Origin: a virus
DNA length: 64,000 nt
Strand: one strand, 5' to 3'
IMG/VR virus record: IMGVR_UViG_3300005573_000058
Location: 32,001-96,000 of that record
Shown one piece after another: positions 29,694 through 59,944 of the stretch. Within the stretch, counting starts at the first letter, position 1; the number at the start of each line of letters is the position of its first letter. The position numbers were made by a program, and so were the translations under genes. Below the pieces are notes generated by a model. The model saw nothing but the letters and a program-made list of their open reading frames with translations, made no database searches and was not told the DNA's origin.

Positions 29694-29834
29694 GTACTTT
29701 TTTAAAATATTTTCATTTTTTTAAAATAATGAAACAATGGAAGGGAGGGGGGTGGCGGCGTAAATATAGTTATAACATTTTTACAGATAGGGGGGAGGGA
29801 TGGTATATAAAACAGATATAAGATCAAAAAAACT

Positions 29835-30360: not shown

Positions 30361-30432
30361 CAAAAAAGATTTAAAATTTTTATAATAATTATAAACAGAT
30401 AATTATGACTTAAATAAAATTCCTATACCTGC

Positions 30433-30981
30433 TCAATTTTGATTAACATCTTTTATTATTTCCTGAAAATTAAAATTGTTTTTAATTTCGTTCCAAAATC
30501 TTTCTACTTCGCATTTCTTTTCAGGTGGATGTTTAACGATATCATGAAAAGCAATAATTCCTCCTTTTCTTACCAGTGGCGAATACATTTCAAAATCTTT
30601 TTTAACTCCTTCATATGAATGATTACCATCTATAAAAAGAAAATCTACTTCTCTTCCATCAAGAATTTTAATTACTTTTTCTTTTGTTACATTAGAAGCT
30701 GAGTTACCTATGACAAGATTAAAAGAACTACCAAATCTATCTGATAAGTAAGATGTCTTTTTTACTACCGCTTGCTCTATATCTACCCCAATATATGTTC
30801 CTCCAGTTTCTTTTAAAATAGAAAGCCAGAAAAATGCTGTTCCTCCACTTTCCACCCCAATTTCAAGAACTGTTTTAAGTGGTTTTAATTCACATACTTT
30901 ATCAAACAAAAGATGAAGTTCTTCTTCAACTTGACATGGTGGAACTACTTTTAATTTTAAAGTTTCAGTAAAAGAAATCAT
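30433..30981 (-). CDS. Class I SAM-dependent methyltransferase (Methyltransf_24-like), ending at a premature-looking TGA
   Basis: VLEIGVESGGT, DFLFIDGNHSYEGVKKDF..Y..LVRKGGIIAFHD; the frame continues *AGIGILFKS* to 30403. Confidence 0.8.
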   Translation of the reverse strand: MISFTETLKLKVVPPCQVEEELHLLFDKVCELKPLKTVLEIGVESGGTAFFWLSILKETGGTYIGVDIEQAVVKKTSYLSDRFGSSFNLVIGNSASNVTKEKVIKILDGREVDFLFIDGNHSYEGVKKDFEMYSPLVRKGGIIAFHDIVKHPPEKKCEVERFWNEIKNNFNFQEIIKDVNQN

Positions 30982-31005
30982 TATAACCTCACGATTTTTA
31001 ATATA

Positions 31006-31803
31006 TTATTTGTTGAATGGTTTATTAAATGTTTCATTGCCAGGCATCCCACCCCATTTACTTATATAATATCTTCTTAAACTTTCAAACACAGGAGATG
31101 AACATACAACATTGTTTTTGATACTTTCTTTCTGTGTTCTACTGCCATAATGATAGTATAAAGCATTCATAACTCTTACAAATTTATACCCACCTATCTT
31201 TATTCTATAATCATAATCTTTATCTTCGAAATAAGCAGGATAGAAATTAGTATCAAACATGCCAACCTTCTCAATAATATCAGGCTCAACAAGAAAAGCA
31301 CTGTAATCATTTATTCTACTACTAGGTCTAAATCTTATATCAGTATTTAAACTAAAGATATCTTCTGGCCTGGCTAATATGTTGTCATTCTTACAAATAG
31401 ATACAGCAAATGCAACTATAACTTTATCATCTTGTTCTTTTGCTCTATTATACTGCTCTATCAGATTATTGATACATTCAGGATGAAATAAAACGTCATT
31501 GTTTATGATGAATACATAATCATAATTATGTTCTTTTGCATACAACAGTCCACTGTTCCAACTTCTTGCCACGCCAATATTACAAAAGTTAAATATAACA
31601 TCTATTTTATCTTTATTTTGTTCAGCATATTCTTTTAATAAATTTCTGTTTACATTATCTGAATTGTTATCAATGATCAATATCTTATAATCATATAATT
31701 GCTCATTTACTTTAATACTGTTCAAACAAAGTAGTGTATATTCTTTAAATAGATTAAGCACAGGTATAACAATTAGAAGTCTTTTTCTATCGTTTCTTAT
31801 CAT
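31006..31803 (-). CDS. Glycosyltransferase family 2
   Basis: IVIPVLN, IIDNNSD, NIGVARSWNSG, IINNDV, VGMFDTNF...YFEDKDY..R, YHYGS. Confidence 0.88.
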   Translation of the reverse strand: MIRNDRKRLLIVIPVLNLFKEYTLLCLNSIKVNEQLYDYKILIIDNNSDNVNRNLLKEYAEQNKDKIDVIFNFCNIGVARSWNSGLLYAKEHNYDYVFIINNDVLFHPECINNLIEQYNRAKEQDDKVIVAFAVSICKNDNILARPEDIFSLNTDIRFRPSSRINDYSAFLVEPDIIEKVGMFDTNFYPAYFEDKDYDYRIKIGGYKFVRVMNALYYHYGSRTQKESIKNNVVCSSPVFESLRRYYISKWGGMPGNETFNKPFNK

Positions 31804-32024
31804 TTACTATTTGTTTTTGAATTGTTGTTAGACTTTTTATAATCTGTCTCATAAAAGCCACCCCCTCTAAACAACAAATTAACAGAACTATACACACGTC
31901 TTATATCATGTGAATGACAGTAATGACATGTAACAGTAGATTCATCATAGTTCATCTCTAGATATTCAGTAAAAGTCTTGTTACATTTATTACATTTAAA
32001 TTCGTAGAATGGCGGCGGCGACAT
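31800..32024 (-). CDS. FmdB-family zinc-ribbon protein
   Basis: P.YEFKCNKC...F...CHYC.S...RVYS...F.GGGFYETDYK. Confidence 0.75.
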   Translation of the reverse strand: MSPPPFYEFKCNKCNKTFTEYLEMNYDESTVTCHYCHSHDIRRVYSSVNLLFRGGGFYETDYKKSNNNSKTNSK

Positions 32025-32683
32025 TATATTTCTTCCCCCCTCTGCCATATCTTTTTAATCTCACTAGTAGCAGGATAGCTAGTTAATATATTATACATTA
32101 GATGAGCAGGACTGACAACACTATCAACTGCCAATCTCACGCCAGCATATTCATAAGATAGAGCAGCTAACTCACTACAGAAGTAAGCAAAATCAACTTG
32201 ATTAAGATATCTAGCTATTATAGTATCTTTAACTAAATACTTTATAATAGGTATCTTTAACAAAAACGACAGCACGCCAGGTAGATCATACAACGTGCCA
32301 ACCTTACTCAATGCAAATCTACATATCTTCTCTCTTTTATCTGAATCTAATATAGATAAATCTAACGTATATACTGTTTCAAAATCAGTGAAATGTCTAT
32401 TCAACTTAGTTACTTTCACGCCAGTGAAATCAGCAGATACACACTCCCCATCGCCAATATACACTTCTACATGAGATGGCAGTGTGTCTATTTTATCATG
32501 AAAATTTATATCTTCTATACTCTCATACCATGCTATAAGTTTTGACCATATACTCTTATGATCTCTAACAAATATGAGTGTACCTGGTAGTATATAATCA
32601 ATATCATTAGTATCATCTGTTATATCATACAAAAGTTCTTTTCTTTTGTTTTTTAACTGTATATATTTTTTAATATTCAACAT
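32024..32683 (-). CDS. Permuted papain-like NlpC/P60 enzyme (YiiX/YebB-like)
   Basis: PGTLIF, SHVEVYIG, VG..YD, YFCSEL...Y..AG, SP: His precedes Cys as in permuted NlpC/P60. Confidence 0.75.
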   Translation of the reverse strand: MLNIKKYIQLKNKRKELLYDITDDTNDIDYILPGTLIFVRDHKSIWSKLIAWYESIEDINFHDKIDTLPSHVEVYIGDGECVSADFTGVKVTKLNRHFTDFETVYTLDLSILDSDKREKICRFALSKVGTLYDLPGVLSFLLKIPIIKYLVKDTIIARYLNQVDFAYFCSELAALSYEYAGVRLAVDSVVSPAHLMYNILTSYPATSEIKKIWQRGEEI

Positions 32684-32700
32684 AGTTTAACCTCCTGTTA

Positions 32701-32795
32701 TAACATTACTACATCAGTAGCAGTCGCCGTTTTAACATTACTACATCAGCGGCAGTCGCTATTGTAACATTTACAACATCAGTGGCAGTCGTTCT
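32701..32795 (-). repeat. Three tandem ~32-bp repeats containing (G/A)CGACTGC(T/C)(A/G)CTGATGT
   Basis: cagtagcagtcg 32715, cagcggcagtcg 32747, cagtggcagtcg 32780, just upstream of the 32683 gene. Confidence 0.7.
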
Positions 32796-32829
32796 TTTAT
32801 AGTCATTCTTACACATCGTAGATAGTATA

Positions 32830-33430
32830 GCATATAACTGTTCTAAACAATGATATATTTTAAAATATAGATCAAGTAACGATTGTTACTTGATCATATA
32901 ACTGTTCTAAGTAGTGAATGTTATTGTTCTAATAACTGCTGTTATCTGTTTTTTAACTGTATAAGATAGATGAAATAGATGTATAAGAATGATGATAAAG
33001 ATGTAATAAACAAGATATAGGCTGCGAAAGTAAATATAAGAATGATAGTAGAACATATAGAAATATATAAAACAGATATAGAAAGCATAAAAATGAATAT
33101 AACAATGTAGCAGCAGTTAATGAGCAGGTATAAGAGCAGTATAAGAGCAGAATAGAGCAAGATAAGGGCAGTATAAGAGCAATATAAGAGCAAATAAATG
33201 GAACGACAGTTAATAGAGCAATGTAATGTAGAGCTGATGTAAGAGCAGATATAAGAGCAAGTAGAAGGCGGTGCGGTTTATAGAACAATAACGGCGACAT
33301 AACTTATAGAGCAGGTATAGGAACAGTATAGAGCTGTTATTAGAGCAAAGAAAAAAGAGCGGTGTAAGAACAGGTATAGGAACAATAGAAGAACAATGTA
33401 GAGCAGGTATAAGAACGGCTGAAGCAGGTG
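32830..33430. repeat. Non-coding strand-switch region with degenerate TA(A)GA(G/A)CAG repeats
   Basis: Many tataagagcag / tagagcag / taagaacag copies; the ORF-track ORFs here are low-complexity artefacts. Confidence 0.65.
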
Positions 33431-33472
33431 TGTAGCTATCTGAAAGTCATACTATTATCACGAGTGGTAAGT

Positions 33473-33700
33473 GGTTGTTTTTGATGGTATAGGGCTGTTC
33501 CGAGCCCTAGCCATCAAAAACGACCAAATGAAGCCTATCAACCTGGGCTGCAGGGGTTGATAGGATAGGGCACTGTAGCAACTTTCTCCCATAGCTGCCG
33601 CCCTATGGGAGGAGGGAAAAAAGAAAATGGCGGCAAAAAGGGAGGTAGGTATGTATAAAAAAGAAGAACAAAGGCAGCCAGGTGACACTCCGGCTGCTAA
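33473..33700 (+). ncRNA. GC-rich structured leader/ncRNA with two predicted pseudoknots
   Basis: Hairpins GGTTGTTTTTGATGG..AGGGCT/AGCCCT..CCATCAAAAACGACC, CCTATCAACC/GGTTGATAGG (loop GCTGCAG can pair with CTGTAGC), CTCCCATAG/CTATGGGAG (loop TGCCGCC can pair with GGCGGCA at 33629). Confidence 0.5.
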
Positions 33701-33767
33701 CGACAATAATAGGAGTGTCAACAAGCAGGGTAATGGAACAGGGACAGAACATAAAAAAGGAGGTAAT

Positions 33768-34808
33768 ATGAACATAGTAAATACATTCATACATAATATG
33801 AAAAAGAATATGACTACAGAAAATGCAAAAGACTTTGCGCAGATCATGACACTGACAGATGCAAAAGCTCTATGGGACAGCTATAAGAACTTCAAGATGA
33901 TAGAGACAGAGGATAACAACAAGAAGATGGAACAGATACTGATGAAACAGTTGATGAAAGAAGCTGTTGAGGCATTCATAAATAGATATAATGGAACAGA
34001 AATGAGTACTGTAGCTATGACTCCAGAAGAGATAGATACAGCTCTTACAAATATTGAAAGAACAGAAGAAGAGATTGAAAAGAAGATTAAAATGATCATG
34101 AGTAAGATAAATACTGATGATATGATGAAAGTCACAAAGAATTCTATATATGAATTTGTTACAGAAGTTGTAAAAATGAAGAATCCAACAACTGCAGATA
34201 TACTGAAACTTGCTATGAATATGAAAGTATCTACAATGACATCAGATACATTCGGTATTAAATTTGAGAAAGCATTTGCAGAAGCAGTAGCTGCTGTCGA
34301 CAAGATTGCTGGAAAGGAAGCTGTAAAGATAGAAATTGAAAATACAGAAGAATCTAAGATGGTTTCTATCCTTGATGGTGTGTTTAAAGTTGATATACTG
34401 AAGATATTCACAGATGTCATCCACATGATGCAAGTGAAGATGGTCAGAAAGTATAGTGATAGAAAATATAATATAGATCAGATGTTGACAGAAAAAACAG
34501 AAGCTATCAAAATGATGAATATTCTTGAGATGATAATAGAAGAGTTTGCGACAGATGGTAAGATAGATGATAAGACAGATGATAAAAAGATTACATTTAA
34601 AAATAATGTAATATTCTTCGAGAACATAGTGATGGATACAATAATAAACAGTCCACGCAGAAATGAATATGCAGAAGAGATAATTAGATATATTAATAAA
34701 ACAGATATAAAGGACAATGAAATCCTTGTTATTACATATGCCGAGATAAATAGTATTACAAGAGAAGCAGAAGTTACATTTAGAACATTGAAAAAGGAGA
34801 CAGTGTGA
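33768..34808 (+). CDS. Hypothetical Met-rich helical protein, first gene of the plus arm
   Basis: Start moved to the ATG at 33768 (AAGGAGGT RBS); coupled by GTGA to the next gene. Confidence 0.65.
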   Translation: MNIVNTFIHNMKKNMTTENAKDFAQIMTLTDAKALWDSYKNFKMIETEDNNKKMEQILMKQLMKEAVEAFINRYNGTEMSTVAMTPEEIDTALTNIERTEEEIEKKIKMIMSKINTDDMMKVTKNSIYEFVTEVVKMKNPTTADILKLAMNMKVSTMTSDTFGIKFEKAFAEAVAAVDKIAGKEAVKIEIENTEESKMVSILDGVFKVDILKIFTDVIHMMQVKMVRKYSDRKYNIDQMLTEKTEAIKMMNILEMIIEEFATDGKIDDKTDDKKITFKNNVIFFENIVMDTIINSPRRNEYAEEIIRYINKTDIKDNEILVITYAEINSITREAEVTFRTLKKETV

Positions 34809-37396
34809 ACAATAATAAAAATAACAAAATAAATAATAATATGAATACAAATATGAATAACAGAGTGATAATAGCATATACAGACGGATCTTGGACATCT
34901 AACAATCCAAATGTTGCTGGATTTGGTATCGTGATTACAGATATAAATAGAAATGTTGTCTATACAGAGACTGGTGAATTGACAGGTAATATTGTGAAGA
35001 TGAGACAAGTAGCAGGAGAGATGAAAGCTGCTATGAAAGCTGTATATTATGCAATAAACAACAGATATAATGAAATTGTTATCAGATATGACTATGAAGG
35101 CGTCGAAAAATGGGCCACTGGAGCATGGAAAGCAAAGAATGAATGGACTAAGAAATATGCAGAATGGATGAATAACGCGATGAAGAGAATAAGGATCAGA
35201 TTTGAGAAGATTAATGCAGCAGATAATATAGCAGACATGATAGCAAGAGAATCTACTGGAGCAAAGGATGCACATAACAGTGAAAGCAGATTAAAAGGAA
35301 TGTTCAATATGACAATGAAAAAAGATAATAATATGAATAATAACAAAAATAACGATACAGAAAAAGTAAGTCCTATGATTAGAGCAGTAGCGACAGAGGT
35401 AAATAAGATGCTCAATAATGACAACAGAATTAAGAAGATTAACAATGAGTATTGCACAATCGATCTGATTGTTGTAGCAAAGAGAGAAAATTCAGACATC
35501 GTGTCTGTAGCAGCTGAAGCAAGACAAGGCGTGATCAGTATAGAGAATGCAGAGATATATTATAAGAATATGATTAAATTTAAAGGATTCATTCCAACAG
35601 AAGCTGAAATTAAAGCGATAATTGGTGATAGAGAATTCATTTATGTAACTTCCAGTGGTCAAGGTCAGACAGATCCAATTATTATGATAGTTGCAAATGA
35701 TAGAATTAGAGAGGACAGAGAGCTTCTCAAGCTTGTAACGAATAATAAGAAGAAACTGCAAAGAATCAAGCTGCTCATCAGATCTCGTAAGTTCATGTTT
35801 GGTAATATAGGTATTACAGACGTTAAGTTCCTCGAAGATCCTGCTGACAACGATTATAGAACAGATGGTGTTATTTATCTAAATACAGATTTCGTAAGAG
35901 ACTTCAATAAGAAGAACGGTATAGATCTTGTTGGTGCAGAAGTGAAAGGTCTTGTGAAAGGTACTATAATGATGAGAGCAGATATACCATATAATGCTAT
36001 TGGTGTCCCAGTCGAAAATGCTCTCAAGTTCGACACAAGGGATAAGAATCTCATTCTTACACGTTCTGGTATAGCAGAATTTGCTGATTTCAGAATGACT
36101 CATACAAGAGGTCTGCCAATAGAACTTATACATCTTGTGAACAAGAAACTTACAAAGGATGAAAAGATTACAACTGCAGATCTTAAGATCAAGATACATG
36201 ATTCTAAACTCTTACACTATGTGTGGAAGATACCAGAGCTCAGAACAAAGATGATAGTTGAAAAGATCATGGATGAATTCAAAGCTGCTATTGTGAAAGC
36301 ATTCAAGACAGATATAAGGAAAGCTGGTGCTGTAATTGAACCTAAACTTGATCTTGACTATGACGAAGTAGTTGTACCACGCAAGATAGCAGAATGGATG
36401 AATATTAAAGTTGGTGACAAGGTTGCTCTATTCAGATCTCCAATTCCAACTCTGTTCAATCTTGCACAACTTAAAGTTGTAGCAACTACAGAACATAATG
36501 TGATCATGCTCAATCCAGATGTTGTGAAGTTTATACTTCTTGGTGATTATGATGGTGATACTGCCTTTATTATAACAGAACCAAGAATTGTTAAAGTTGC
36601 AACACCACCATCTACAATTATAGATGAAGCAAAGAGACTTGTAACTGAGTATGCAGAGAAAGTAGAAGAAAGGGCAGCTAATGTTGGTGATCTTGATGAG
36701 TATGAAATATGGAATCTGTCTTATAAGAACGCACAGCAGATTGGTAGAGCAACTTATAATCATTGGAGCTATATTGAGAAACATTATACATTCAGAGAAC
36801 AGATGAAGAGCTGGCTCTATAGAGTTCAGATGATCATAGATGCAACTAAATATGGAATCAATATTGGAGAAGTACAGAGCGATCTCGAAAATGAAATATA
36901 TGAAAATATGCTTGTTTCTGGTAAGTTTAGTGCAGAAAGTACCATAGAACTAGTAAATAAGAAGATTAATAGAACAGAAATATTTGGTATCCAAATGACA
37001 GAAGCATTTAAACTTGCATTTAAGAAGATGATTGAATATATGAATAAAGATGTTGATACAGCTGATATGAATAGAATTAGAAAGTTTACTAACGATGCAA
37101 TAGAACTGATTAAGAAACAAGGAAAGACAAAGATCTTAGATGAATATCTACTTACACTTTATAGAGATAAGAAATTTAATACTATAAAAACTATGATAGA
37201 AACAGATACTGAAAATAAGATCGATAGATTTATACTTGCTATTGCTGCACTCAGAGTATGGAACTATCCATGGAATGTTGGTATAGCAGAATTTGTGAAT
37301 CCAGATCTTATTGAAAAGCTTTATAATATAGAACATGCTAATTTCGAAGATGAAGAGCCAGAAATAGGAATAGATATTGATCAGGAGGAGATATGA
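34805..37396 (+). CDS. RNase HI domain fused to a single-chain two-barrel (YonO/eRdRP-like) nucleotide polymerase
   Basis: N-terminal IIAYTDGSW, RQVAGEMKA, RYDYEGV..W, N.IADMIA (RNase HI D-E-D-D residues); then TDGVIYL, EVKGLVKG, ALFRSPIP, LGDYDGD (DxDGD at 36545-36559). Confidence 0.75.
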   Translation: MNNNKNNKINNNMNTNMNNRVIIAYTDGSWTSNNPNVAGFGIVITDINRNVVYTETGELTGNIVKMRQVAGEMKAAMKAVYYAINNRYNEIVIRYDYEGVEKWATGAWKAKNEWTKKYAEWMNNAMKRIRIRFEKINAADNIADMIARESTGAKDAHNSESRLKGMFNMTMKKDNNMNNNKNNDTEKVSPMIRAVATEVNKMLNNDNRIKKINNEYCTIDLIVVAKRENSDIVSVAAEARQGVISIENAEIYYKNMIKFKGFIPTEAEIKAIIGDREFIYVTSSGQGQTDPIIMIVANDRIREDRELLKLVTNNKKKLQRIKLLIRSRKFMFGNIGITDVKFLEDPADNDYRTDGVIYLNTDFVRDFNKKNGIDLVGAEVKGLVKGTIMMRADIPYNAIGVPVENALKFDTRDKNLILTRSGIAEFADFRMTHTRGLPIELIHLVNKKLTKDEKITTADLKIKIHDSKLLHYVWKIPELRTKMIVEKIMDEFKAAIVKAFKTDIRKAGAVIEPKLDLDYDEVVVPRKIAEWMNIKVGDKVALFRSPIPTLFNLAQLKVVATTEHNVIMLNPDVVKFILLGDYDGDTAFIITEPRIVKVATPPSTIIDEAKRLVTEYAEKVEERAANVGDLDEYEIWNLSYKNAQQIGRATYNHWSYIEKHYTFREQMKSWLYRVQMIIDATKYGINIGEVQSDLENEIYENMLVSGKFSAESTIELVNKKINRTEIFGIQMTEAFKLAFKKMIEYMNKDVDTADMNRIRKFTNDAIELIKKQGKTKILDEYLLTLYRDKKFNTIKTMIETDTENKIDRFILAIAALRVWNYPWNVGIAEFVNPDLIEKLYNIEHANFEDEEPEIGIDIDQEEI

Positions 37397-37722
37397 TCGA
37401 CAATAAAATAATTAATATGATATTTTATAAAGTTGTTGTCAGAGGAACTAACAGCGGACCATGGTCAATTAATATGACAGAGAAAGAGAAAGCTACATCC
37501 AAATATGTATTCTTTGCAGATGAAAGAAACATTAATATATGGATCAGAGAGGCAGTAAGAACTTATGGCGACAGATATGAATTTGATCTTGTTTGCTATA
37601 GAGTTAAAGTAAATAATATTGATAATGTTATATATGAACCTAATCAGATTGTTATCAGAAAAGATGCAATTATATCTGTAACAGAGAAGATGAGAGTAAA
37701 GATCAACAAGGAGGCAGTGTGA
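37393..37722 (+). CDS. Hypothetical protein
   Basis: 109 aa, AGGAGG RBS, ATGA overlap. Confidence 0.6.
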   Translation: MIDNKIINMIFYKVVVRGTNSGPWSINMTEKEKATSKYVFFADERNINIWIREAVRTYGDRYEFDLVCYRVKVNNIDNVIYEPNQIVIRKDAIISVTEKMRVKINKEAV

Positions 37723-38420
37723 ACAATAATATTAATATAACTATGAAGAATCTTATGAAACAGATCCATGAATATATGAAGCAGATTCATGAACATAATA
37801 GCAGAATAAGTCATGAACAGAAGTTACAGAGAGAGATAAAAGATAATAGAAAGTTGATAATCAGATGGCTACAAGCATATGAAGTTGTTGATAAGACATA
37901 CGATGAAATATTTGAATATGAATTCAGTACAGCAGATAAGATAGAGAAAGCAGCAGAGGTAGTGATAAATAAGAAACATATGGATCATGTAAAAGTCGGA
38001 TTATTGTTCAATCATAAAGCTGTAAGAAGAACATTCAAAGGAGATGTATTTTCAATGTCAGGAGAACAGTTGAAAGATCTATTGAACAGATATGTGAGAG
38101 CGATGAAAGATGAAAACAATAGTGAGGATAGTTTAACAGAACAGTTCTTTAAGATGCATCATCTGAATGTACATACTGTTGAACAGATAGATGACAACAG
38201 ATTATATAAAACACAGAAAGCAGGTGGAGTTGTTCGTGAGTGCTGGGTCAGAGGTAGAATAATAGGTATAGTACTTAGAGATAGAATAAATCATATTTAC
38301 AACGAAAAAGAAGGACAGTTAATTATAGATGTATTAAGAACAGCGTTAGAATATGCGAAAAAGAACAATATACCAGTTTACATAATAGATGATAGGCAGC
38401 AGAGAGTATATATGGCATAA
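37719..38420 (+). CDS. Hypothetical protein
   Basis: 233 aa, GTGA overlap, AAGGAGG RBS. Confidence 0.6.
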   Translation: MNNNINITMKNLMKQIHEYMKQIHEHNSRISHEQKLQREIKDNRKLIIRWLQAYEVVDKTYDEIFEYEFSTADKIEKAAEVVINKKHMDHVKVGLLFNHKAVRRTFKGDVFSMSGEQLKDLLNRYVRAMKDENNSEDSLTEQFFKMHHLNVHTVEQIDDNRLYKTQKAGGVVRECWVRGRIIGIVLRDRINHIYNEKEGQLIIDVLRTALEYAKKNNIPVYIIDDRQQRVYMA

Positions 38421-38750: not shown

Positions 38751-38821
38751 AAAACAAGAGCGATGGCATGGTGCCATCGCTCTAAACTTTGCTGCCTTTT
38801 ATGGCGGCAGAAGGAGGAGGT

Positions 38822-39199
38822 ATGTCTTTGTTGAAATTTGATGTCAAAAAAGTTATTATCACAAAAAATGAGATAAAAGTTGAAAAAAATGTTGTTGAAG
38901 CGATTAAAAAAGTTGCGGATATATCTTATAAGATGTATCCGCTTAAGAAAATTGTATGGATAAAGATTGACGATTTATGCGTTATAAGTCAAAATCCTAA
39001 AGGTAGAAGTATATATGCTAAGTTAGTAAGTAAAAACATAATAGGAATATATAGAGTAGGATGGATTGTTAAAGATAAAAAGGGTAAAAGAGAGTGGGTA
39101 GCAAAATATTTTTTGCGACCTAATCGAGAAAAAAATATATTTGAACTGGAAATCTACAAGCCAGGTTCGAAGATACCTGGCTTAGATGACAGGAAGTAA
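38822..39199 (+). CDS. Cassette 1 hypothetical protein (paralog of 44565-44996)
   Basis: ATG at 38822 with AGGAGG; SQNPKG.S.YA.LVS.N.IG.YR.GWI...AKYFLR.NR...LEIY.P...G.DDRK shared with the paralog. Confidence 0.7.
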   Translation: MSLLKFDVKKVIITKNEIKVEKNVVEAIKKVADISYKMYPLKKIVWIKIDDLCVISQNPKGRSIYAKLVSKNIIGIYRVGWIVKDKKGKREWVAKYFLRPNREKNIFELEIYKPGSKIPGLDDRK

Positions 39200-39420
39200 A
39201 ATAAATATGGTGGGTGGATAGGTTTGTTATTCTATCCCCCCCACCATATTCCCTCCAGGGAGAGTAGCGATTATGTATTGTTGCTACTCTCACTATGGGG
39301 AAGGAATAAACACACAGGCAACTGAAAATATGGTTGCCTGTGTTAATGGTTTTTAAAAAATTTGATAGGAACAGTGAGGTTCTATTCCTTCTGTTCCTAT
39401 CATAAAAATAAGGAGGTATT

Positions 39421-39756
39421 ATGTTAATTGTGTGTAACAGTTTTAGCACAAATATGTTAAATTCTTTTAATGATGAATCAGTTATCAGTTTCCGAAAAAT
39501 TTCCTTGCAAGAAGCAAGGAAATTCGTAGAAGACGCTGAGAGCGTCTCATCAGCTGTCGGCCATGCGCCGACTGCAGAAGTATTCTCTAAGTTGTTGGGA
39601 ATTAGAATAGAAACGAACAGGACCGAGATAAAACTCGGTCCTGAAACTGTCTTACTAATAGGTAGCCTCGGAACGAGGCTACCTGAAGGAAGAATCCTGT
39701 CCAAGGAAGAGCTTGAAGCTCTTCCAATTATTTGGTGGGTCGCCTCATTGGTTTAG
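39421..39756 (+). CDS. acrIII-1: AcrIII-1-family (DUF1874/YddF) cyclic oligoadenylate ring nuclease, anti-CRISPR
   Basis: ML.V.NSFS.NML, SAVGH..TA...S.LLG.....NR..IKL, L..RLPEGRIL...EL: signature of DUF1874, including the catalytic GH. Confidence 0.85.
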   Translation: MLIVCNSFSTNMLNSFNDESVISFRKISLQEARKFVEDAESVSSAVGHAPTAEVFSKLLGIRIETNRTEIKLGPETVLLIGSLGTRLPEGRILSKEELEALPIIWWVASLV

Positions 39757-39991
39757 GCAACCCACCAAAGAGAAGCCCCTTTCAGGGCTTCTCTTTTTGC
39801 CCCCCGCCATAGAGTTCCACAGTAGCCTGCGGGGGGCTTGTTCATACTACAGATGTAACATATGTAACAGTTGTATGAACAGAAGATTTCATTACTGTTC
39901 ATACAACTGTTGTATCTGCTTAAAACGGTTTTTAAAAAATAGAAATAGCAGGTTCTACTCCTGCTACTTCTATTATAAAAAAGGAGGTTGT

Positions 39992-40171
39992 ATGAAAAAA
40001 GAAGGAAAAATAGTAGTTAGGTTTGGAAGGTCTGATCCTGATGGAATAAGCTACTACTGTTTTCAAGAAGATAAAACTTATTACTCAGGATACTTTGATA
40101 TCATAGAAATAGAATTAAGTATAGAAGAGTGGAAAAAACTGAAAAGTCAATTAAAAACCCACAGCTGCTAA
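39992..40171 (+). CDS. Cassette 3 small hypothetical protein (59 aa)
   Basis: ATG at 39992 after AAGGAGGT; the track's longer N-terminus is translated repeat. Confidence 0.6.
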   Translation: MKKEGKIVVRFGRSDPDGISYYCFQEDKTYYSGYFDIIEIELSIEEWKKLKSQLKTHSC

Positions 40172-40383
40172 ACTGTGGGTTTTTTCTTTTTGCCCCCCGC
40201 CCTAGCCAATCCAAAGTAGCTGGCGGGGGGCTTGTTCATATTAAAGATGTAACAGAAGTATGAACAGAAGTTTTATTACTGTTCATACAACTGTTGCATC
40301 AATAGAGGTTTTTAAAAAAAGAGCAATGACAATGGTGTCATTGCTCTAAACAGCTGCCTTACGGCAGCAAAAAGGAGGTTTTT

Positions 40384-40920: not shown

Positions 40921-41144
40921 GGACTTTCTTTTTTTGTTACAGTAATCAGCCCGCCGCCACAGAATTTCAAAGCAGCCTGCGGCGGGCTTGTTTTTAAAGA
41001 TGCAACAGATGTATAGACAGAAGATTTTAATATAGTTCATACATCTGTTGCATCTGCTTAAAACGGTTTTTTAAAAAACAAGAGCGATGGCATGGTGCCA
41101 TCGCTCTAAACCTTGCCATCATATTGATGGCAAAAGGAGGTAAT

Positions 41145-53435: not shown

Positions 53436-55523
53436 ATGAAAAATAAAAAGCAAGTTTTAAAAGCTGCCCCGATAAAATTGGTAAAGGGGCAGAGATTTGT
53501 AATGCTTAGACATATAGTAGTTAAGAAAGATGGTACATTTGAAATAACAGATGGTAAGTATGTTAACATCGATGTAGGACAGAATAAATTAGCATTGAAT
53601 ATGTGGAGATATATGGCTAAATTTGTTGATGAAAAAGGTAAGAATATTGTACCATCAAAAGATGTATTAAAAAAGTTAGAAGATCAATATGAAATTACAT
53701 ATATTCATACTGGTCATAGAGGAACTGAGGCTAGAGTATTGTTAAAGAAGTTCAACAAAGTTGAAAGATATCTGAAAGGATTACCTGTTGAAAAGAAAAT
53801 AGCAAGAAGAAAGCTGTTTTTAAGAAGAAAGATAGACGACTTCAGATCATATGGTATAGATAAAATAAGAATAATAAATGTTCCAAAAGAGTATGAAAAA
53901 TATGTAGATGGTGTAATATTCTATAAAGGCAAAGAGATTATGAAAGGTGATAAGAACAGAAGAAACTTAGAAGGAGCAGAAGTGAAAGGATTTGCAAAAG
54001 GATCATTGATGAATGTTAATAAGTCAAAGTTCTTTAAGAAGTTAATAGGAGATGTACAAGAAGATGAATTAGTTATACCATCTTGTAACGTTAAAATGAG
54101 GAAAGATTTAAAATATACAATAGATGATATATGGATAGCTGAATATGCAAAGACAAGAGCTGTTGTTAAAGATGAATTAGAATATGGTATAGCAGCGATG
54201 ATAAAAAATGTAAAACCTATTGATGTACCTGAATGGACATTAGAAAGGATATATGAACTTGTAAAGTTGACTGATAATGATAACATGGCAAGTGCATTGT
54301 TAAAGGCAGGTGTACCATTGAATGATCAGTATTTTGTTCAATCAGCAGAACCTATTATATCTGCTGAGATAAGTAGAATATTTAGAATCGGATATGGATT
54401 AACAGGATTTGCTGTTGCTCTGCCAAAGGCAGGTAAGGTTGATGAAATTGTCGTTGGTAAAAGAATTGCAAAGTGGTTGAATATAAAGAAAGGAGGAACT
54501 GTTGTTCTTACAAGAAATCCAATTCCAGGTATATTAGGACTACTGAGAGTAAAAGTTAAAAAGATTGTAGATAAAGATGTTATTTATGTTCATCCAGATA
54601 TATGGACAGGTGTATTGAAAGGAGACTATGATGGTGATCTGTGTCAGTTGATTGTTGATTATCCAGAGCTTAAAGAACATGCATTTGAGCCAGCTCATGC
54701 TCTAAAGCTAGTTGAAAAAGCAAATAAGATGATAGAGAAAGAAGATAGTACAGAAGAAAATCTGCAGCAAACAGAACTTGATGTATATCATGCTATTGTA
54801 TCAAATGCAGCTGCTGTAGGTATATTGACGATGGAATGGTTAGAAAGGATGAATGAATATCATAAGATGTCAAAAGATAAAAGAGCTGTTCAAATGTATG
54901 TTGATTTTGAAGACATTCAAAAGAGTATAGATGGAATGAAACATGATGCATATAAGAATGCTGTTAAGCTTGCTGATAGAATTAAGAATATTATGAGAAC
55001 GAGACAAGTAAATAGCTATTTAAGAGCTATAAGGAATGTTAATATATCTTATGAGAATAGAATAGAAGTTATAAGAAGTGCAAATTATACATCAGATGAT
55101 ATTTATGAAAAGATTGTATGTAGAAGAAGAAATGCTATAAAGGGATTAGATAGTATTGGTAGTCAAACAGTTGAATATGATTATAGAAGTGCAGCAAAGA
55201 AGATGTTAAAAGAGGTTAATATCGACTCTGAAAGATTACAGAAAGCAAGACAGATGGTGATTAAGTTTCATAGTAAAAATGGATATTCGGAAATGGCTAC
55301 TATTGAGTTAGCTAAGAAGTTGTACAAAACGCTGAAGCTTAAAAAGAATATAGTAGCATTGCTAGAAGCAAGTACATATCCAAGAGGAGTTGGAAGAGCA
55401 GCAATGTTGAGTCTGCCAACTGCAAAAAAGATAGTGAAACTAGCAATTCAAGATATGAACGATGTTAAAGAAATAATAGAACAAGATATAAAAGAAGTTA
55501 AGAAGATAATAAATCAGCCATGA
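53436..55523 (+). CDS. Single-chain two-barrel (YonO/eRdRP-like) nucleotide polymerase, paralog of 34805-37396 without RNase H
   Basis: VDGVIFY, GAEVKGFAKG, IAKWLNIK.G..V.L.RNPIP, LKGDYDGD (54624-54638), IDGMKH; colinear with the fused copy. Confidence 0.75.
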   Translation: MKNKKQVLKAAPIKLVKGQRFVMLRHIVVKKDGTFEITDGKYVNIDVGQNKLALNMWRYMAKFVDEKGKNIVPSKDVLKKLEDQYEITYIHTGHRGTEARVLLKKFNKVERYLKGLPVEKKIARRKLFLRRKIDDFRSYGIDKIRIINVPKEYEKYVDGVIFYKGKEIMKGDKNRRNLEGAEVKGFAKGSLMNVNKSKFFKKLIGDVQEDELVIPSCNVKMRKDLKYTIDDIWIAEYAKTRAVVKDELEYGIAAMIKNVKPIDVPEWTLERIYELVKLTDNDNMASALLKAGVPLNDQYFVQSAEPIISAEISRIFRIGYGLTGFAVALPKAGKVDEIVVGKRIAKWLNIKKGGTVVLTRNPIPGILGLLRVKVKKIVDKDVIYVHPDIWTGVLKGDYDGDLCQLIVDYPELKEHAFEPAHALKLVEKANKMIEKEDSTEENLQQTELDVYHAIVSNAAAVGILTMEWLERMNEYHKMSKDKRAVQMYVDFEDIQKSIDGMKHDAYKNAVKLADRIKNIMRTRQVNSYLRAIRNVNISYENRIEVIRSANYTSDDIYEKIVCRRRNAIKGLDSIGSQTVEYDYRSAAKKMLKEVNIDSERLQKARQMVIKFHSKNGYSEMATIELAKKLYKTLKLKKNIVALLEASTYPRGVGRAAMLSLPTAKKIVKLAIQDMNDVKEIIEQDIKEVKKIINQP

Positions 55524-57563: not shown

Positions 57564-59487
57564 ACTCCAAAGAGTAAGAATGGCATCATTGTCAGATGAA
57601 GATTGGTTAGGAATATTCATATTAGAGTTTGCAAAAAGATATGAGTTTTATGGACATCTTGTGTATCAGTTTAGAAGAAGATTAGTTGATCAGAAGATAT
57701 CATATATGGGTACGCCGTTGTTTATGCAGATTGAGATGCCACTTGGAAGTTCAACATTGATAGATAGAAAATTTGTTGATGCAACTTTAGTATCATGTAT
57801 TGAAAATATGAAAACACTGCCTTTTAATCAGGTGATTGGAATTTTGCATCATGAGATATTACATTTTACTAATATGCATTCAATAAGAGGGTTAAATATT
57901 GCGAAACAAATAGCAAAAGAGGTAGGAGTATTAGATCCAAAAGAGTTATATGATAATCCTGTATTTACAGCAATTTTGAATATTGCTGCAGATGCATCTA
58001 TTAATGAATATGTTAGGGAATTTGACGAATACAGAGATGGTATAGTTACGATATCTTCTATCAACAAAGAATATAAACTGAAGTTAAGTCCTGGAGCATC
58101 TTTTGAAGAGATATTCTTCTCTTTATATAAATTTGAAAAAGATAAGATAAAGAAAGCGCAGAAAAGTATTCATGAAATAAGGAAAGTTATACAACAGATT
58201 AATCAGAAGATACAGCAAGCATCTCAGAATAGAAATAAGCAGATAAAGCAGATAACAGAGAAGCTAAAGAAAGAAGCAGGTGAGTATAATAGTAAAGCTA
58301 ATAGCCAACAGAGTCAACAGTTGAAAGATCAGGCAGATAGTATAGATCAGAAATCTGATGAGATGAAAGATGCTGAGAGTAAAGGAGATAATAGAAAGCA
58401 GCAGCAAGTAGAAGATGAAATGAAGAAAATGGCAGGTCAAATGAAAGAGCAGATAGATGAAACAGAACAACAACAGCAGGAAGAAGAAGGAAAAGATAAC
58501 CTCAATAGAATGAAAGATTTAATTAAACAGTTAGAAGACATGTTAAATGGTCAGCAACAAAATCAACAGCAAAATCAGCAACAAAATCAACAACATGAAC
58601 AGGAAGAAGGTAACGATGAAGATCAAAGTGATCAACAGAATAATAGCAGTTTAAAAGATTTGATAAATCAGCTGGAGAAAAACTTTAGCAATCAGCTGAA
58701 AGAGTTAAGAAAGCTATTATCAACACCAATAGCTTTAGCTGATGAGAAAGATAAAGATAATATAGAACAGATGACAAAAGCAAAGATATATAATGCATAT
58801 AAACAGACATCAGATAAAGGTAGAGGATCTATTCCATCGGACGTGTTAGAGATCATAGAAAGTATTGAAAAGCCAGTAAGTATACCTCTTCATCAGTTCT
58901 TAAGAAGAATAGCAAATAGTTATGCTAAACAGAATAGGACATTGTCGTTCAGGAGATATGATAAAAGATATGGTACAGTGCCTGGTGATATAGTTAGTAA
59001 TAAAGAGACTGTCGCATTTATATTAGATGTATCTGGTTCAATGTCAAATGAATTGTTAGCAGAGGGTGTTGCATTTTTGAATACTATATCGAAAGATTAT
59101 GAAACTATTATGTGTCAGATTGATACTGAACTAAAATTAGATCGGATAAAAATACTAAATAGAAGAGTAGATAAACTAGAAGTCGAAGGCAGAGGCGGAA
59201 CAGATTTTAACGATTTATTCAGATTAATGAAAGGTGAAGAACTGGAACAACATGAGATAAAGTATTATAAGTTGTTGAAAAGAGCTGCAACTGTGTTCAT
59301 ATTTACTGATACAAATGCTAGTATAGATACTAGAAGATATAATCAAAAAGAGATAAAACAATCTGTTGTATTTATAACTGATAGTAAATATATATACAAT
59401 GAAGTATTAGATTTTGGTGGTGTAGTTATAAAATATGATAAAAATAATAAGATATATGAAGTAATAAGAGGAGGCATATATGAATAA
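57547..59487 (+). CDS. HExxH metallopeptidase-like plus vWA domain protein (DUF2201-like MoxR partner)
   Basis: ILHHEILH...H..R, NIAAD..IN, Q-rich linker, ILDVSGSM (MIDAS), GRGGTDF, IFTD. Confidence 0.82.
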   Translation: MSLKDELQRVRMASLSDEDWLGIFILEFAKRYEFYGHLVYQFRRRLVDQKISYMGTPLFMQIEMPLGSSTLIDRKFVDATLVSCIENMKTLPFNQVIGILHHEILHFTNMHSIRGLNIAKQIAKEVGVLDPKELYDNPVFTAILNIAADASINEYVREFDEYRDGIVTISSINKEYKLKLSPGASFEEIFFSLYKFEKDKIKKAQKSIHEIRKVIQQINQKIQQASQNRNKQIKQITEKLKKEAGEYNSKANSQQSQQLKDQADSIDQKSDEMKDAESKGDNRKQQQVEDEMKKMAGQMKEQIDETEQQQQEEEGKDNLNRMKDLIKQLEDMLNGQQQNQQQNQQQNQQHEQEEGNDEDQSDQQNNSSLKDLINQLEKNFSNQLKELRKLLSTPIALADEKDKDNIEQMTKAKIYNAYKQTSDKGRGSIPSDVLEIIESIEKPVSIPLHQFLRRIANSYAKQNRTLSFRRYDKRYGTVPGDIVSNKETVAFILDVSGSMSNELLAEGVAFLNTISKDYETIMCQIDTELKLDRIKILNRRVDKLEVEGRGGTDFNDLFRLMKGEELEQHEIKYYKLLKRAATVFIFTDTNASIDTRRYNQKEIKQSVVFITDSKYIYNEVLDFGGVVIKYDKNNKIYEVIRGGIYE

Positions 59488-59944
59488 AAATGTAATAATT
59501 GCCTATGTAGATGGATCTTGGTCATCTAAAAATCCTGATATATCAGGATATGGTGTTGTCATTACTGATGTCAATAACAATGTAATTTATGTAGATAAAG
59601 GTTATATTACAGGAGATGCTACAGTAATGAGACAAGTAGCTGGGGAAGTAGAATCAGTTGTAAGAGCTGTTGATTATGCAATAAAGAATAAATATAGTAA
59701 GATTGTTATTAAGTATGATTATGAAGGAGTAAGAAGTTGGGTTACAGGTGACTGGGAAACAAGGAATGAGTGGACAAGAAGATATTCAGAATGGATGGAT
59801 GATGCGAAGAAAAAAGTGCTGATCAAATTTGAAAAAATAGAATCAAAAGATAATGTAGCAGATATAATGGCAAGAGCATATACGAAAGCAGGAGATGTTC
59901 ATAATAGTGAGAGTAAGTTAAAGAAGGAATTTGATTTAAGATAA
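59480..59944 (+). CDS. Stand-alone ribonuclease HI (paralog of the fused domain at 34805)
   Basis: IIAYVDGSWSS.NP, MRQVAGE, KYDYEGV..W..G.W...NEWT, DNVADIMAR...HNSES.LK. Confidence 0.85.
   Translation: MNKNVIIAYVDGSWSSKNPDISGYGVVITDVNNNVIYVDKGYITGDATVMRQVAGEVESVVRAVDYAIKNKYSKIVIKYDYEGVRSWVTGDWETRNEWTRRYSEWMDDAKKKVLIKFEKIESKDNVADIMARAYTKAGDVHNSESKLKKEFDLR

What the first reader, a model, noticed from the sequence alone, without database searches (positions are those of the whole stretch)
34805..37396. RNase H fused to a minimal two-barrel (DxDGD) polymerase
Seen: an intact RNase HI domain (about aa 20-165) is joined in frame to a region with DG, K..KG, R.P and GDYDGD motifs in the order found in SPbeta YonO and eukaryotic RNAi RdRPs. 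I know of no described RNase H-two-barrel polymerase fusion. Inference: it could make and process RNA primers, clear R-loops behind a polymerase on ssDNA or newly injected DNA, or act in an RNA-to-DNA cycle with the phage RT.
Basis: partly seen in the sequence, partly recalled or inferred. Interest (0 to 1): 0.88.

Follow-up and report, generated by a model that had tools for sequence, protein, structure and literature searches.

The report
RNase H fused to phage RNA polymerase
A large hot-spring phage encodes one protein that joins an RNA-cutting RNase H to a small cell-type RNA polymerase; the pairing is real and recurs in other uncultured viruses, but it has been noted in print and its job is still untested.

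Summary
ORF 34805-37396 (+, 863 aa) is one uninterrupted gene. Two separate assemblies reproduce it without a difference.

- **RNase H part:** residues ~20-157 are a type-1 RNase H with the DEDD residues kept.

It is not a detectable YonO relative by sequence.

The phage also has an unfused paralogue (53436-55523) and a stand-alone RNase H (59480-59944). Related metagenomic phages keep RNase H next to the orthologous polymerase gene. Four more distant proteins join the same RNase H type to a DxDGD polymerase-like region, at either end.

A 2012 paper mentions RdRP-like enzymes combined with RNase H in cyanobacteria.

Most likely it is an early phage transcriptase that clears its own RNA:DNA hybrids. 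Origin priming is the main rival.

This scan had noted two-barrel polymerase fusions on other DNA.

The parts
34805..37396 (+). Whole fusion gene, 863 aa (RNase H + two-barrel RNA polymerase), GTG start, stop included
   Evidence: identical in two assemblies; same protein on record on 5 contigs from 3 sources
34794..34799 (+). Shine-Dalgarno-like AAGGAG, 5 nt before the GTG start
   Evidence: read from the sequence
34862..35275 (+). Type-1 RNase H domain, about aa 20-157; DEDD = D27, E72, D96, D144
   Evidence: Pfam RVT_3 27.8 bits; PHROG 531; PDB 2kq2 3.7e-13; conservation in 33 sequences; positions
35276..35533 (+). Asn/Lys-rich linker and poorly conserved N-terminal leader of the polymerase part (aa 158-243). 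The stand-alone RNase H paralogue aligns up to about aa 169, and unfused polymerases start at about aa 177. In-frame ATGs lie at aa 166, 169, 171 and 177, and AAAGGA lies 9 nt before the ATG of aa 169.
   Evidence: A separate internal start is inference only.
35534..36868 (+). Two-barrel polymerase core (aa 244-688), confidently modelled
35864..35962 (+). Beta-like barrel motifs: D354-G355 and G377-A-E-V-K381-G-L-V-K385-G386
   Evidence: invariant in 11 of 11 sequences; positions
36434..36559 (+). Beta-prime-like barrel motifs: R544-S-P546 and G580-D581-Y-D583-G-D585 (metal-binding triad)
   Evidence: invariant in 11 of 11 sequences; Pfam RdRP 580-691; profile match to P23-45 gp96 RNAP 3e-4 over this stretch
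36869..37393 (+). C-terminal helical region (aa 689-863), low model confidence, weakly conserved
   Evidence: pLDDT 30-49; alignment A1
33627..34808 (+). Upstream gene of the same operon (393 aa, no family found); its stop overlaps the fusion's start
37393..37722 (+). Downstream 109-aa gene overlapping the fusion's stop. Homologues (34-36% identity) lie just upstream of the orthologous polymerase genes in L004, L005 and L007.
   Evidence: no Pfam or PHROG family
37719..38420 (+). Last gene of the overlapping four-gene run (233 aa, no family found)
53436..55523 (+). Unfused paralogous two-barrel polymerase (695 aa, 'group B'), 25% identical to the fused one, with all the same motifs
59480..59944 (+). 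Stand-alone RNase H paralogue (154 aa, 55-56% identical to the fused domain), 0.5 kb upstream of an ATP-dependent ligase-domain gene

Best explanation
The gene encodes a bifunctional phage enzyme. One part is a non-virion, single-chain two-barrel DNA-dependent RNA polymerase, most like gp64 of Thermus phage P23-45 in fold. An active type-1 RNase H is attached covalently to its N-terminus.

**Proposed working**
1. The gene is expressed from the start of the rightward, probably early, block, as the second of four overlapping genes.
2. The polymerase part transcribes phage DNA.
3. The tethered RNase H cuts the RNA strand of any RNA:DNA hybrid (R-loop) that this minimal polymerase leaves behind. 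Such hybrids should form easily on this 30% G+C genome at hot-spring temperature.
4. Cutting them keeps the template clear for further transcription and for the phage replisome.

**Shown here:** the fusion, both folds and domains, retention of all catalytic residues, and a recurrent evolutionary linkage of this RNase H type with such polymerases.

**Inferred:** DNA-templated RNA synthesis, RNase H activity, early timing, and R-loop clearing as the purpose.

My odds are about 0.9 for the identity and about 0.45 for the R-loop-clearing mechanism. The figure below is for the mechanism.
For: **Identity**
- Pfam RdRP and RVT_3 both score above their cut-offs.
- PDB 2kq2 RNase H matches at 3.7e-13, and DEDD is conserved.
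- The eight residues that Ruprich-Robert & Thuriaux 2010 list as invariant in two-barrel RNAPs (passage) are all present. They are invariant in 11 of 11 relatives.
- The AlphaFold model has mean pLDDT 69 and pTM 0.66, with most of the core at pLDDT 70-97.
- Foldseek gives 28 PDB matches at E <= 0.001. The rows listed down to E 5e-4 are all two-barrel polymerases: QDE-1 2.2e-12, RDR2, P23-45 gp96, gp64, crAss phi14:2 gp66 and vaccinia RNAP.
- BFVD and ESM Atlas neighbours are phage 'RdRP' clusters.

**Transcriptase rather than primase**
- The closest solved relatives, gp64 and gp96, transcribe early genes (Chaban 2024, passages).
- The phage has its own primase-helicase and PolB, about 50 kb away from this gene.

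**Functional coupling of RNase H and polymerase**
- RNase H lies directly after the orthologous polymerase in L006, with a 20-nt gap. It lies 0.8-1.8 kb downstream in L004 and L005. That is 3 of 3 group-A loci whose downstream flank is held.
- Four distant proteins in three lineages join the same RNase H type to a [RK]xP...DxDGD region, N- or C-terminally: P0009, P0013/P0034 and P0039.
- The combination has been noted in print for cyanobacterial versions.
Against: - No activity, template preference or timing was measured.
- YonO, the best-studied minimal two-barrel RNAP, releases its RNA properly: its transcripts were RNase H-resistant (Forrest 2017, passage). A need for hybrid clearing is therefore not established for this enzyme class.
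- A tethered RNase H could equally serve primer maturation.
- The gene lies 1.4-1.7 kb from an 11-nt-phased repeat array and near the cumulative GC-skew minimum. That would also suit an origin-linked role.
- The fused polymerase sits on a long branch, 1.68 changes per site against 0.63-0.82 for its kin. This could mean a changed function.
- The distant fusions are supported only by motifs, weak-to-moderate profile matches (hhalign E 1e-3 to 1e-5) and language-model neighbours, not by structures.
Confidence: 0.45

Rival explanations
1. Origin primer maker. The polymerase transcribes into a replication origin. The transcript stays annealed as an R-loop. The attached RNase H trims it to a 3'-OH that the phage PolB extends. 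This would work like ColE1 RNA II with RNase H, or like mitochondrial priming (both recalled from general knowledge), but in a single polypeptide.
For: - Aravind et al. 2012 suggest that RdRP-like enzymes of phages and selfish elements may act as primases, and that the RNase H combination points to RNA-DNA hybrids (passage).
- The operon starts 0.2 kb after a dense array of 11-nt-phased repeats at 33000-33450. The array's motif occurs 26 times in the window against 1.45 expected.
- The array lies near the cumulative GC-skew minimum.
- An unfused paralogue is available for ordinary transcription.
- The fused copy sits on a long branch.
Against: - The phage has a DnaG-DnaB primase-helicase.
- The GC-skew switch coincides with the switch of gene orientation, so it need not mark an origin.
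- The repeat motif also clusters at 30036-30433 and 46993-48214. That pattern looks more like promoter or operator fields, or region boundaries, than a single origin.
- In relatives the RNase H sits among small genes of unknown family beside the polymerase genes, with no replication gene found in 10 of 10 neighbours scanned.
Confidence: 0.2
2. Fusion without mechanistic coupling. The RNase H does ordinary replication work, such as Okazaki primer removal, or general hybrid removal. It was merely joined to a neighbouring polymerase gene by loss of a stop codon. Internal initiation may still give free polymerase.
For: - The domain boundary coincides with the natural end of the stand-alone RNase H (about aa 169) and the natural start of unfused polymerases (about aa 177).
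- In-frame ATGs with an AAAGGA 9 nt upstream lie at the joint.
- The same RNase H type is also found fused to unrelated enzymes, for example Orn/Lys/Arg decarboxylases P0058 and P0088.
Against: - Of the 12 RNase H-bearing representatives of 400 aa or more among the best 150 (the four unfused polymerases left out), 5 are polymerase fusions. These fall in at least four lineages and both orientations.
- RNase H is adjacent to or near the polymerase gene in 3 of 3 relatives' loci.
- The genome already has a second RNase H beside a ligase for replication work.
Confidence: 0.15
3. RNA-templated or RT-coupled cycle. The polymerase copies RNA, like QDE-1 and RDR enzymes, or it feeds the phage's RT-like enzyme, with RNase H removing templates.
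For: - Foldseek's best E-values are to RNA-dependent QDE-1 and RDR2.
- Pfam's matching family is named RdRP.
- An RT-like ORF, an RNase H and a ligase-domain gene cluster at 59480-63899.
Against: - The characterised phage members YonO, gp64 and gp96 use DNA templates.
- The RT-like ORF is 24 kb away, has its own RNase H neighbour, and reaches only 15.4 bits on RVT_1, below the cut-off.
Confidence: 0.05
4. Artefact. The open frame joins two genes through an assembly or sequencing error.
For: - The joint is low-complexity A/T-rich sequence.
- A 47-nt direct repeat, 70% alike, stands at the ORF start and at the joint.
Against: - Contigs of two runs from two samples cover the whole stretch with 0 differences and 0 gaps.
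- The identical protein is on record on 5 contigs from JGI/IMG, ENA and Logan.
- Comparable fusions exist in unrelated metagenomic proteins.
Confidence: 0.02

Closest known systems
Thermus phage P23-45 gp64 / P74-26 gp62 non-virion RNA polymerase (PDB 8F72, 8F5M; Chaban et al. 2024, PMC10770324, passages read)
   Same: - Single-chain two-barrel RNAP of a thermophilic phage.
- Similar core size.
- The phage carries more than one such polymerase.
- The family profile also matches the sister enzyme gp96 by sequence, at 3e-4.
   Different: - No RNase H in gp64 or gp96: 'RNase H' occurs 0 times in the paper's main text.
- Only 11% identity in the structural alignment.
- gp64 itself is not among the 13 PDB sequences that the profile reached at E <= 10.
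- The host and phage type here are unknown.
YonO of Bacillus prophage SPbeta (Forrest et al. 2017, PMC5467207, passages read)
   Same: - Single-chain two-barrel DNA-dependent RNAP of a phage.
- Same order of catalytic motifs.
- About the same size as the polymerase part.
   Different: - No detectable sequence relationship beyond the DxDGD stretch: hhalign E 0.083, probability 0.7%.
- No SPbeta hit by tblastn at E <= 1.
- YonO has no RNase H domain.
[quoted passage not shown] 2012, PMC3417536, one passage read; it cites Iyer & Aravind 2011, not held)
   Same: The same pair of domains, and the same inference that the enzyme works on RNA-DNA hybrids.
   Different: - Described for cyanobacterial chromosomal or selfish-element genes, not for a phage.
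- I could not see whether those are true fusions or neighbours, nor their sequences.
- My searches found no experimental work on them.
Eukaryotic RNAi polymerases QDE-1 / RDR2 (PDB 5FSW, 2J7N, 7W82)
   Same: - Two-barrel single-chain fold.
- Pfam family PF05183.
   Different: - Those enzymes copy RNA or ssDNA in silencing pathways.
- They are larger (about 900-1100 aa) and have no RNase H.
- Only 11-14% identity.
Type-1 RNase H of Herelleviridae-type Staphylococcus phages (PHROG 531) and PDB 2KQ2
   Same: - The RNase H domain belongs to this subfamily: 35-39% identity to the phage genes, 3.7e-13 to 2kq2.
- Shared YDY-G-x-x-W-A-x-G-x-W-K motif.
   Different: - Those are stand-alone proteins of about 140 aa.
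- The domain here lacks the His-containing loop that 13 of the 33 aligned sequences carry, and it is fused to a polymerase.

Membership tests
Two-barrel (double-psi beta-barrel) RNA polymerase superfamily | Eight invariant catalytic residues: the Asp triad of DxDxD, R and P of RxP, two Lys and one Asp of the beta-like barrel (listed in Ruprich-Robert & Thuriaux 2010, passage) | tested here: met
   D581, D583, D585; R544, P546; K381, K385; D354. All are invariant in 11 of 11 aligned sequences.
Two-barrel (double-psi beta-barrel) RNA polymerase superfamily | Two double-psi beta-barrels in the fold, facing one active site | tested here: met
   AlphaFold2 model (pTM 0.66, most of the core at pLDDT 70-97). 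Top Foldseek and VIA matches are two-barrel polymerases, and isolated DPBB domains (p97 N domain, a designed DPBB) also match. This is a predicted structure, not a solved one.
Two-barrel (double-psi beta-barrel) RNA polymerase superfamily | Template-dependent NTP polymerisation abolished by mutating the Asp triad | not testable with these tools
   Needs biochemistry.
Pfam PF05183 (RdRP) | Whole-protein score above the curated gathering cut-off | tested here: met
   27.1 bits against 23.8, E 2.3e-6. Only residues 580-691 match, to profile positions 434-543 of 582.
YonO family in the narrow sense (SPbeta YonO relatives) | Detectable sequence homology to YonO beyond the catalytic motif | tested here: not met
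   hhalign of the 11-sequence profile against YonO: E 0.083, probability 0.7%, 46 columns around DxDGD. tblastn of the polymerase part against 50,697 phage records at E <= 1 hit 8 records, none of them SPbeta.
P23-45 gp64-type non-virion RNAP | Shared fold beyond the barrels, with best structural match to gp64/gp62 | tested here: met
P23-45 gp64-type non-virion RNAP | Sequence-level family membership | tested here: inconclusive
   The family profile reaches gp96 (8h2m/8h2n) at 3e-4, but gp64 is not among the 13 sequences at E <= 10.
Type-1 RNase H (RNase HI-like; Pfam RVT_3 / RNase_H) | Domain model above cut-off and the four carboxylates (DEDD) | tested here: met
   RVT_3 27.8 bits against 21.6; 2kq2 3.7e-13. 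D27, E72 and D96 are invariant and D144 at least 90% conserved in 33 sequences. The assignment of these columns to the catalytic DEDD rests on my knowledge of RNase HI.
Type-1 RNase H (RNase HI-like; Pfam RVT_3 / RNase_H) | Cleavage of RNA in RNA:DNA hybrids | not testable with these tools
   Needs an enzyme assay.

The most novel reading that the evidence does not exclude
The fusion is a self-contained origin-firing enzyme. The polymerase transcribes into the neighbouring 11-nt-phased repeat field. The tethered RNase H converts the persistent R-loop into the leading-strand primer for the phage PolB. This would be a ColE1- or mitochondria-style priming pathway compressed into one polypeptide. 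It would be repeatedly reinvented by viruses and selfish elements that join RNase H to two-barrel polymerases at either end.
Probability: 0.2. Interest if true: 0.8.

Novelty: new variant of a known kind. Interest (0 to 1): 0.55.

Why it matters
Single-chain two-barrel RNA polymerases of phages (YonO, crAss gp66, P23-45 gp64 and gp96) are models for the minimal core of cellular RNA polymerase. They lack most of the parts that cellular enzymes use to handle the RNA:DNA hybrid.

A covalently attached, apparently active RNase H recurs in several unrelated lineages and in both orientations. In sister phages the same pairing appears as neighbouring genes. This is comparative evidence that hybrid processing is part of how some of these enzymes work.

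No member of this architecture has been studied at the bench, as far as my searches show. This thermophilic example has an unfused paralogue in the same genome as a built-in control. That makes it a convenient protein for asking whether the RNase H clears R-loops, matures primers or recycles stalled complexes.

The domain combination itself is not new to the literature. The value lies in the new phage family, the evidence of recurrence and the testability.

Tried and rejected
**Structure and complex prediction**
- The single-sequence AlphaFold run of the whole protein failed (mean pLDDT 34.9). It was replaced by the run with alignment A2.
- Complex prediction of the polymerase core with the RNase H domain gave no answer: score 0.00, controls not run. 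This is not evidence either way.

**Searches for relatives that found little**
- Three word-indexed protein searches returned only the protein itself, plus P0152 in one of them. Only the 8000 candidates sharing most words were scored. They say nothing about rarity.
- The search for related loci found no relatives in viral contigs with A1, P0039 or P0013. It found none in genome contigs with A1 or P0009.
- tblastn of P0001, P0013 and P0039 against 50,697 phage records hit 326, 352 and 322 records. No record covers 80% or more of any query. Every listed row (30, 12 and 12) covers only the RNase H end.
- The polymerase part alone hit 8 records at E 0.1-0.5. Two of the genes are annotated 'RNA-dependent RNA polymerase'. 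This is too weak to use.
The genomic contexts of P0003, P0009, P0013, P0034 and P0039 could therefore not be fetched.

**A third polymerase in this genome**
- My A2 profile found only the two known copies among all stop-to-stop frames of 60 aa or more in the genome.
- Pfam found no family in the 2665-aa and 2198-aa proteins.
- The lead is neither supported nor excluded.

**Other negative or inconclusive results**
- YonO homology was not shown.
- Sigma-70-like promoters are no more frequent than in shuffles: 35 found against 31.7 expected.
- No RNA holder is listed for the stretch.

**Papers**
- Iyer & Aravind 2011 (PMC3769190) is not held.
- Supplements are closed. Supplementary Data 4 of Chaban 2024, a survey of viral two-barrel RNAPs, may already list such fusions, and I could not see it.
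- The statement that no experimental study of an RNase H-fused two-barrel polymerase is in print rests on searches of the held library only.

**Rows left out**
- P0014 was left out of alignment A2 and the tree. It is a variant of the L004 770-aa protein with the RxP barrel segment missing.
- L005, L008 and L012 were also left out. They are 96-99% identical to rows that were kept, or partial.

Full report
**The object.** The window is bases 32001-96000 of a 138,661-base virus record, estimated 80% complete. It has about 30% G+C. The two public runs that hold the stretch are labelled hot springs metagenome.

Genes run leftwards up to about 33 kb and rightwards after it. ORF 34805..37396 (+) is the second of four overlapping rightward genes: 33627..34808, 34805..37396, 37393..37722 and 37719..38420. 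Its GTG start has an AAGGAG 5 nt upstream and overlaps the preceding stop.

**Is the fusion real?** The frame is open for 863 codons. Logan contigs of two runs (two samples, two studies) each cover 34600-37600 in one piece, with no differing letter, gap, joint or loose end. Both runs may be the source of this DNA, so this shows reproducible assembly rather than independent occurrence. The identical protein is on record on 5 contigs from JGI/IMG, ENA and Logan.

The joint is low-complexity. A 47-nt stretch at the ORF start is 70% alike to one at the joint. I give this no weight beyond noting it.

**RNase H part.**
- Pfam RVT_3 matches residues 26-138 at 27.8 bits, against a cut-off of 21.6.
- PHROG 531 'Rnase H' matches at 1.5e-15.
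- The five PDB sequences reached at E <= 1 are all RNases H. The best is 2kq2, at 3.7e-13 over residues 24-157.
- In an alignment of 33 members of this subfamily, D27, E72 and D96 are invariant and D144 is at least 90% conserved. These are the four carboxylates of type-1 RNase H; that assignment comes from my knowledge of the family.
- The domain lacks the His-bearing loop that 13 of the 33 sequences carry. So do the phage's stand-alone paralogue and 18 of the other sequences.

**Polymerase part.** Pfam RdRP (PF05183) matches residues 580-691 at 27.1 bits, against a cut-off of 23.8.

An exhaustive HMMER search of 1.84 billion representatives gave 2688 proteins at E <= 0.001. Most of these are RNases H. 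Among the 150 listed, phmmer with the polymerase part alone finds four relatives apart from the protein itself: P0003, P0014, P0118 and the window's own paralogue P0054.

One scan of metagenome contigs gave nine loci with relatives. In an 11-sequence alignment the following columns are invariant:
- D354-G355
- G377, E379, K381, G382, K385, G386
- R544, P546
- G580, D581, D583, G584, D585

These include all eight residues that Ruprich-Robert & Thuriaux (2010, passage) list as invariant in two-barrel RNA polymerases.

**Fold.** The single-sequence fold failed. With the 11-row alignment, the core (protein residues 244-688) is modelled mostly at pLDDT 70-97, with pTM 0.66. The C-terminal 175 residues stay below 50.
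- Foldseek against the PDB gives 28 matches at E <= 0.001. The rows listed down to E 5e-4 are all two-barrel polymerases: QDE-1 2.2e-12, RDR2, P23-45 gp96 4.6e-6, gp64 3e-5, crAss-like phi14:2 gp66 6.6e-5 and vaccinia RNAP. Isolated double-psi barrels follow.
- The family profile also reaches P23-45 gp96 by sequence, at 3e-4.
- BFVD and ESM Atlas neighbours are phage proteins labelled RdRP.

By contrast, the profile does not detect SPbeta YonO (hhalign E 0.083, probability 0.7%). 'YonO-like' holds only at superfamily level.

**Paralogues and relatives.** The genome holds an unfused paralogue at 53436..55523 (695 aa; BLASTP 3e-25, 25% identity). It also holds a stand-alone RNase H at 59480..59944, 55-56% identical to the fused domain. 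That gene lies 0.5 kb upstream of an ATP-dependent ligase-domain gene.

A maximum-likelihood tree splits the polymerases into two clades with 100/100 support.
- **Group A:** the fused copy, L006, and two tandem paralogues in L004 and L007.
- **Group B:** the unfused copy with L009, L010, L011 and P0118.

The fused copy has the longest branch (1.68), so its exact place is unsure.

Group B keeps its neighbours in L011 and partly in L010: small genes upstream, then an AAA+ ATPase and a DUF2201/VWA protein downstream.

Group A keeps two associates.
- A 107-109-aa protein. It lies downstream here (37393..37722) and upstream in L004, L005 and L007.
- RNase H. It starts 20 nt after the polymerase stop in L006 (3289..3747). 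It lies 0.8 kb and 1.8 kb downstream in L004 and L005.

RNase H is thus present in all 3 group-A loci whose downstream flank is held; L007 ends inside the polymerase gene. None of the five group-B loci (2.4-15 kb) contains an RNase H.

**More distant fusions.** Among the 150 best representatives, 16 are 400 aa or longer. Eight of the 150 carry [RK]xP, then 25-50 residues, then DxDGD. Four of these eight are the group A/B polymerases, including the query's own record P0002. The other four are long proteins whose RNase H domain is 39-44% identical to the one here.

| Protein | Length | RNase H position |
|---|---|---|
| P0009 | 905 aa | C-terminal |
| P0013 | 1088 aa | C-terminal |
| P0034 | 1215 aa | C-terminal, with a NADAR-like stretch before it |
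| P0039 | 1004 aa | N-terminal |

Evidence that the non-RNase H parts are polymerases:
- Each has a KGT motif about 200-250 residues before DxDGD.
- hhalign against the family profile aligns the RxP-DxDGD barrel in register. E is 1.2e-5 for P0013, 1.8e-5 (probability 78%) for the P0013/P0034 pair, and 1.1e-3 for P0009 and P0039.
- BLASTP of the window protein against P0034 gives 2e-4 in the polymerase part.
- For the non-RNase H part of P0039, 23 of 30 language-model neighbours are clusters carrying PF05183.

I call these probable, not proven, polymerase fusions. They form three lineages besides this one; P0013 and P0034 are 35% identical.

None of the 50,697 cultured-phage records covers 80% or more of P0001, P0013 or P0039. 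Every listed row covers only the RNase H end.

**What is in print.** Aravind et al. [quoted passage not shown] They add that such enzymes may have arisen as primases of selfish elements. They cite Iyer & Aravind 2011, which is not held.
- Chaban et al. 2024 (passages) show that P23-45 has a virion RNAP and a non-virion RNAP, both two-barrel. They say many viral genomes encode two such RNAPs.
- Forrest et al. 2017 (passages) show that YonO is a DNA-dependent RNAP whose transcripts are RNase H-resistant, and that it has no detectable hydrolytic activity.
- Five searches found no experimental study of an RNase H-fused two-barrel polymerase in the held library.

**Mechanism.** Shown: a single polypeptide with an apparently intact RNase H active site and an apparently intact two-barrel polymerase active site. 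The two functions are linked evolutionarily in several lineages, by fusion at either end and by adjacency. From this I infer that the RNase H acts on hybrids made by the polymerase.

I favour a transcriptase that clears its own R-loops (about 0.45), for three reasons.
- The nearest characterised enzymes are early-gene transcriptases.
- The gene sits at the head of the rightward block, far from the replisome genes. Those are PolB at G000 117451-119829 and the DnaG-DnaB primase-helicase at 121138-123579.
- The genome keeps a separate RNase H beside a ligase, for replication work.

The main rival (about 0.2) is R-loop priming at an origin.
- For it: the operon begins just after a field of 11-nt-phased repeats (33000-33450). 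The motif is over-represented, at 26 matches against 1.45 expected. The field lies near the cumulative GC-skew minimum.
- Against it: the same motif also clusters at 30036-30433 and 46993-48214, and the skew switch coincides with the switch of gene orientation.

A fusion with no mechanistic meaning (about 0.15) is made less likely by the recurrence. An RNA-templated or RT-linked role (about 0.05) has no specific support. An artefact (about 0.02) is contradicted.

**Verdict.** The polymerase family (groups A and B) carries no name in the libraries I could query, and it is closest in fold to the Thermus-phage gp64 enzymes. The RNase H fusion is a variant of a domain combination already mentioned in print for cyanobacterial relatives, and never characterised as far as my searches show. 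Interest is moderate. The find is a clean, testable case rather than a new kind of system.

Earlier notes of this scan describe two-barrel polymerases with other fusions on other DNA: DEDDh exonuclease, tape measure, and one giant cyanophage protein with an 'RNase H-like' part. A candidate virion polymerase upstream of this window was also noted. I could neither confirm nor exclude it.

Noticed in passing
window 33000-33450; also 30036-30433 (-) and 46993-48214 (-): Dense fields of 11-nt-phased repeats (ATAAGAGCAGt / AGCAGGTATAGGAAC). The 15-mer with up to 3 mismatches occurs 26 times against 1.45 expected. The fields flank the block 33.4-47 kb in opposite orientation. They could be origin iterons, phage-polymerase promoter or operator fields, or region boundaries.
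   Followed up: partly
window 33472-33626: Three G+C-rich hairpins (33472-33526, 33534-33564, about 33590-33612), followed by AGGAGG and the ATG of gene 33627. They resemble the stem-loop leaders that another note describes before the small genes at 38757-45032.
   Followed up: no
window 53436-59487; L011 2377-12615: The unfused group-B polymerase keeps a conserved neighbourhood in a related metagenomic locus. Three small genes lie upstream. Downstream lie an AAA+ (MoxR/dynein-like) ATPase (56164-57321) and a DUF2201 metallopeptidase/VWA protein (57547-59487).
   Followed up: partly
window 37393-37722; L004 1540-1863, L005 1660-1983, L007 about 1209-1493: A 107-109-aa protein of no known family is conserved next to group-A polymerase genes (34-36% identity). 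It is a candidate accessory factor of the polymerase.
   Followed up: partly
window 59480-63899: Cluster of a stand-alone RNase H, a 162-aa ORF, an ATP-dependent DNA ligase-domain protein (186 aa), a DUF1828 protein, a 103-aa ORF and a 721-aa ORF. The 721-aa ORF matches RVT_1 only weakly, at 15.4 bits and E 7.4e-4, below the cut-off.
   Followed up: partly
L004 2495-7044, L005 2615-7164, L007 3355-7010: Related phages carry two group-A polymerase paralogues in tandem (770 and 745 aa). With a group-B copy, apparently on other contigs, that would make three polymerases.
   Followed up: partly
G000 106332-110834 (outside the window; L018): A 1501-aa anaerobic ribonucleotide reductase (NrdD, 1.4e-153) is interrupted by intein splicing and LAGLIDADG homing-endonuclease domains.
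   Followed up: no
G000 18419-26413 and 26409-33002 (-); the second runs into window 1-996: Two giant proteins (2665 and 2198 aa) in the leftward block have no Pfam family at E <= 0.01 and no match to my polymerase profile.
   Followed up: partly
window 39421-39756: A 111-aa protein of the STIV B116-like family (PF08960, 2.2e-19; PHROG 5063, 2.2e-27), a family named after an archaeal virus protein.
   Followed up: no
proteins P0058 (608 aa) and P0088 (687 aa) from the representative search: The same RNase H subfamily is also fused, at either end, to Orn/Lys/Arg decarboxylase domains. P0015 (5922 aa) carries it internally.
   Followed up: no
protein P0014 (697 aa): A database variant of the L004 770-aa polymerase lacks the segment holding the RxP barrel strand. 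It is possibly a deletion or an assembly fault.
   Followed up: no
window 45213-45289: A tRNA-Glu (anticodon TTC) is the only tRNA gene found in the window.
   Followed up: no
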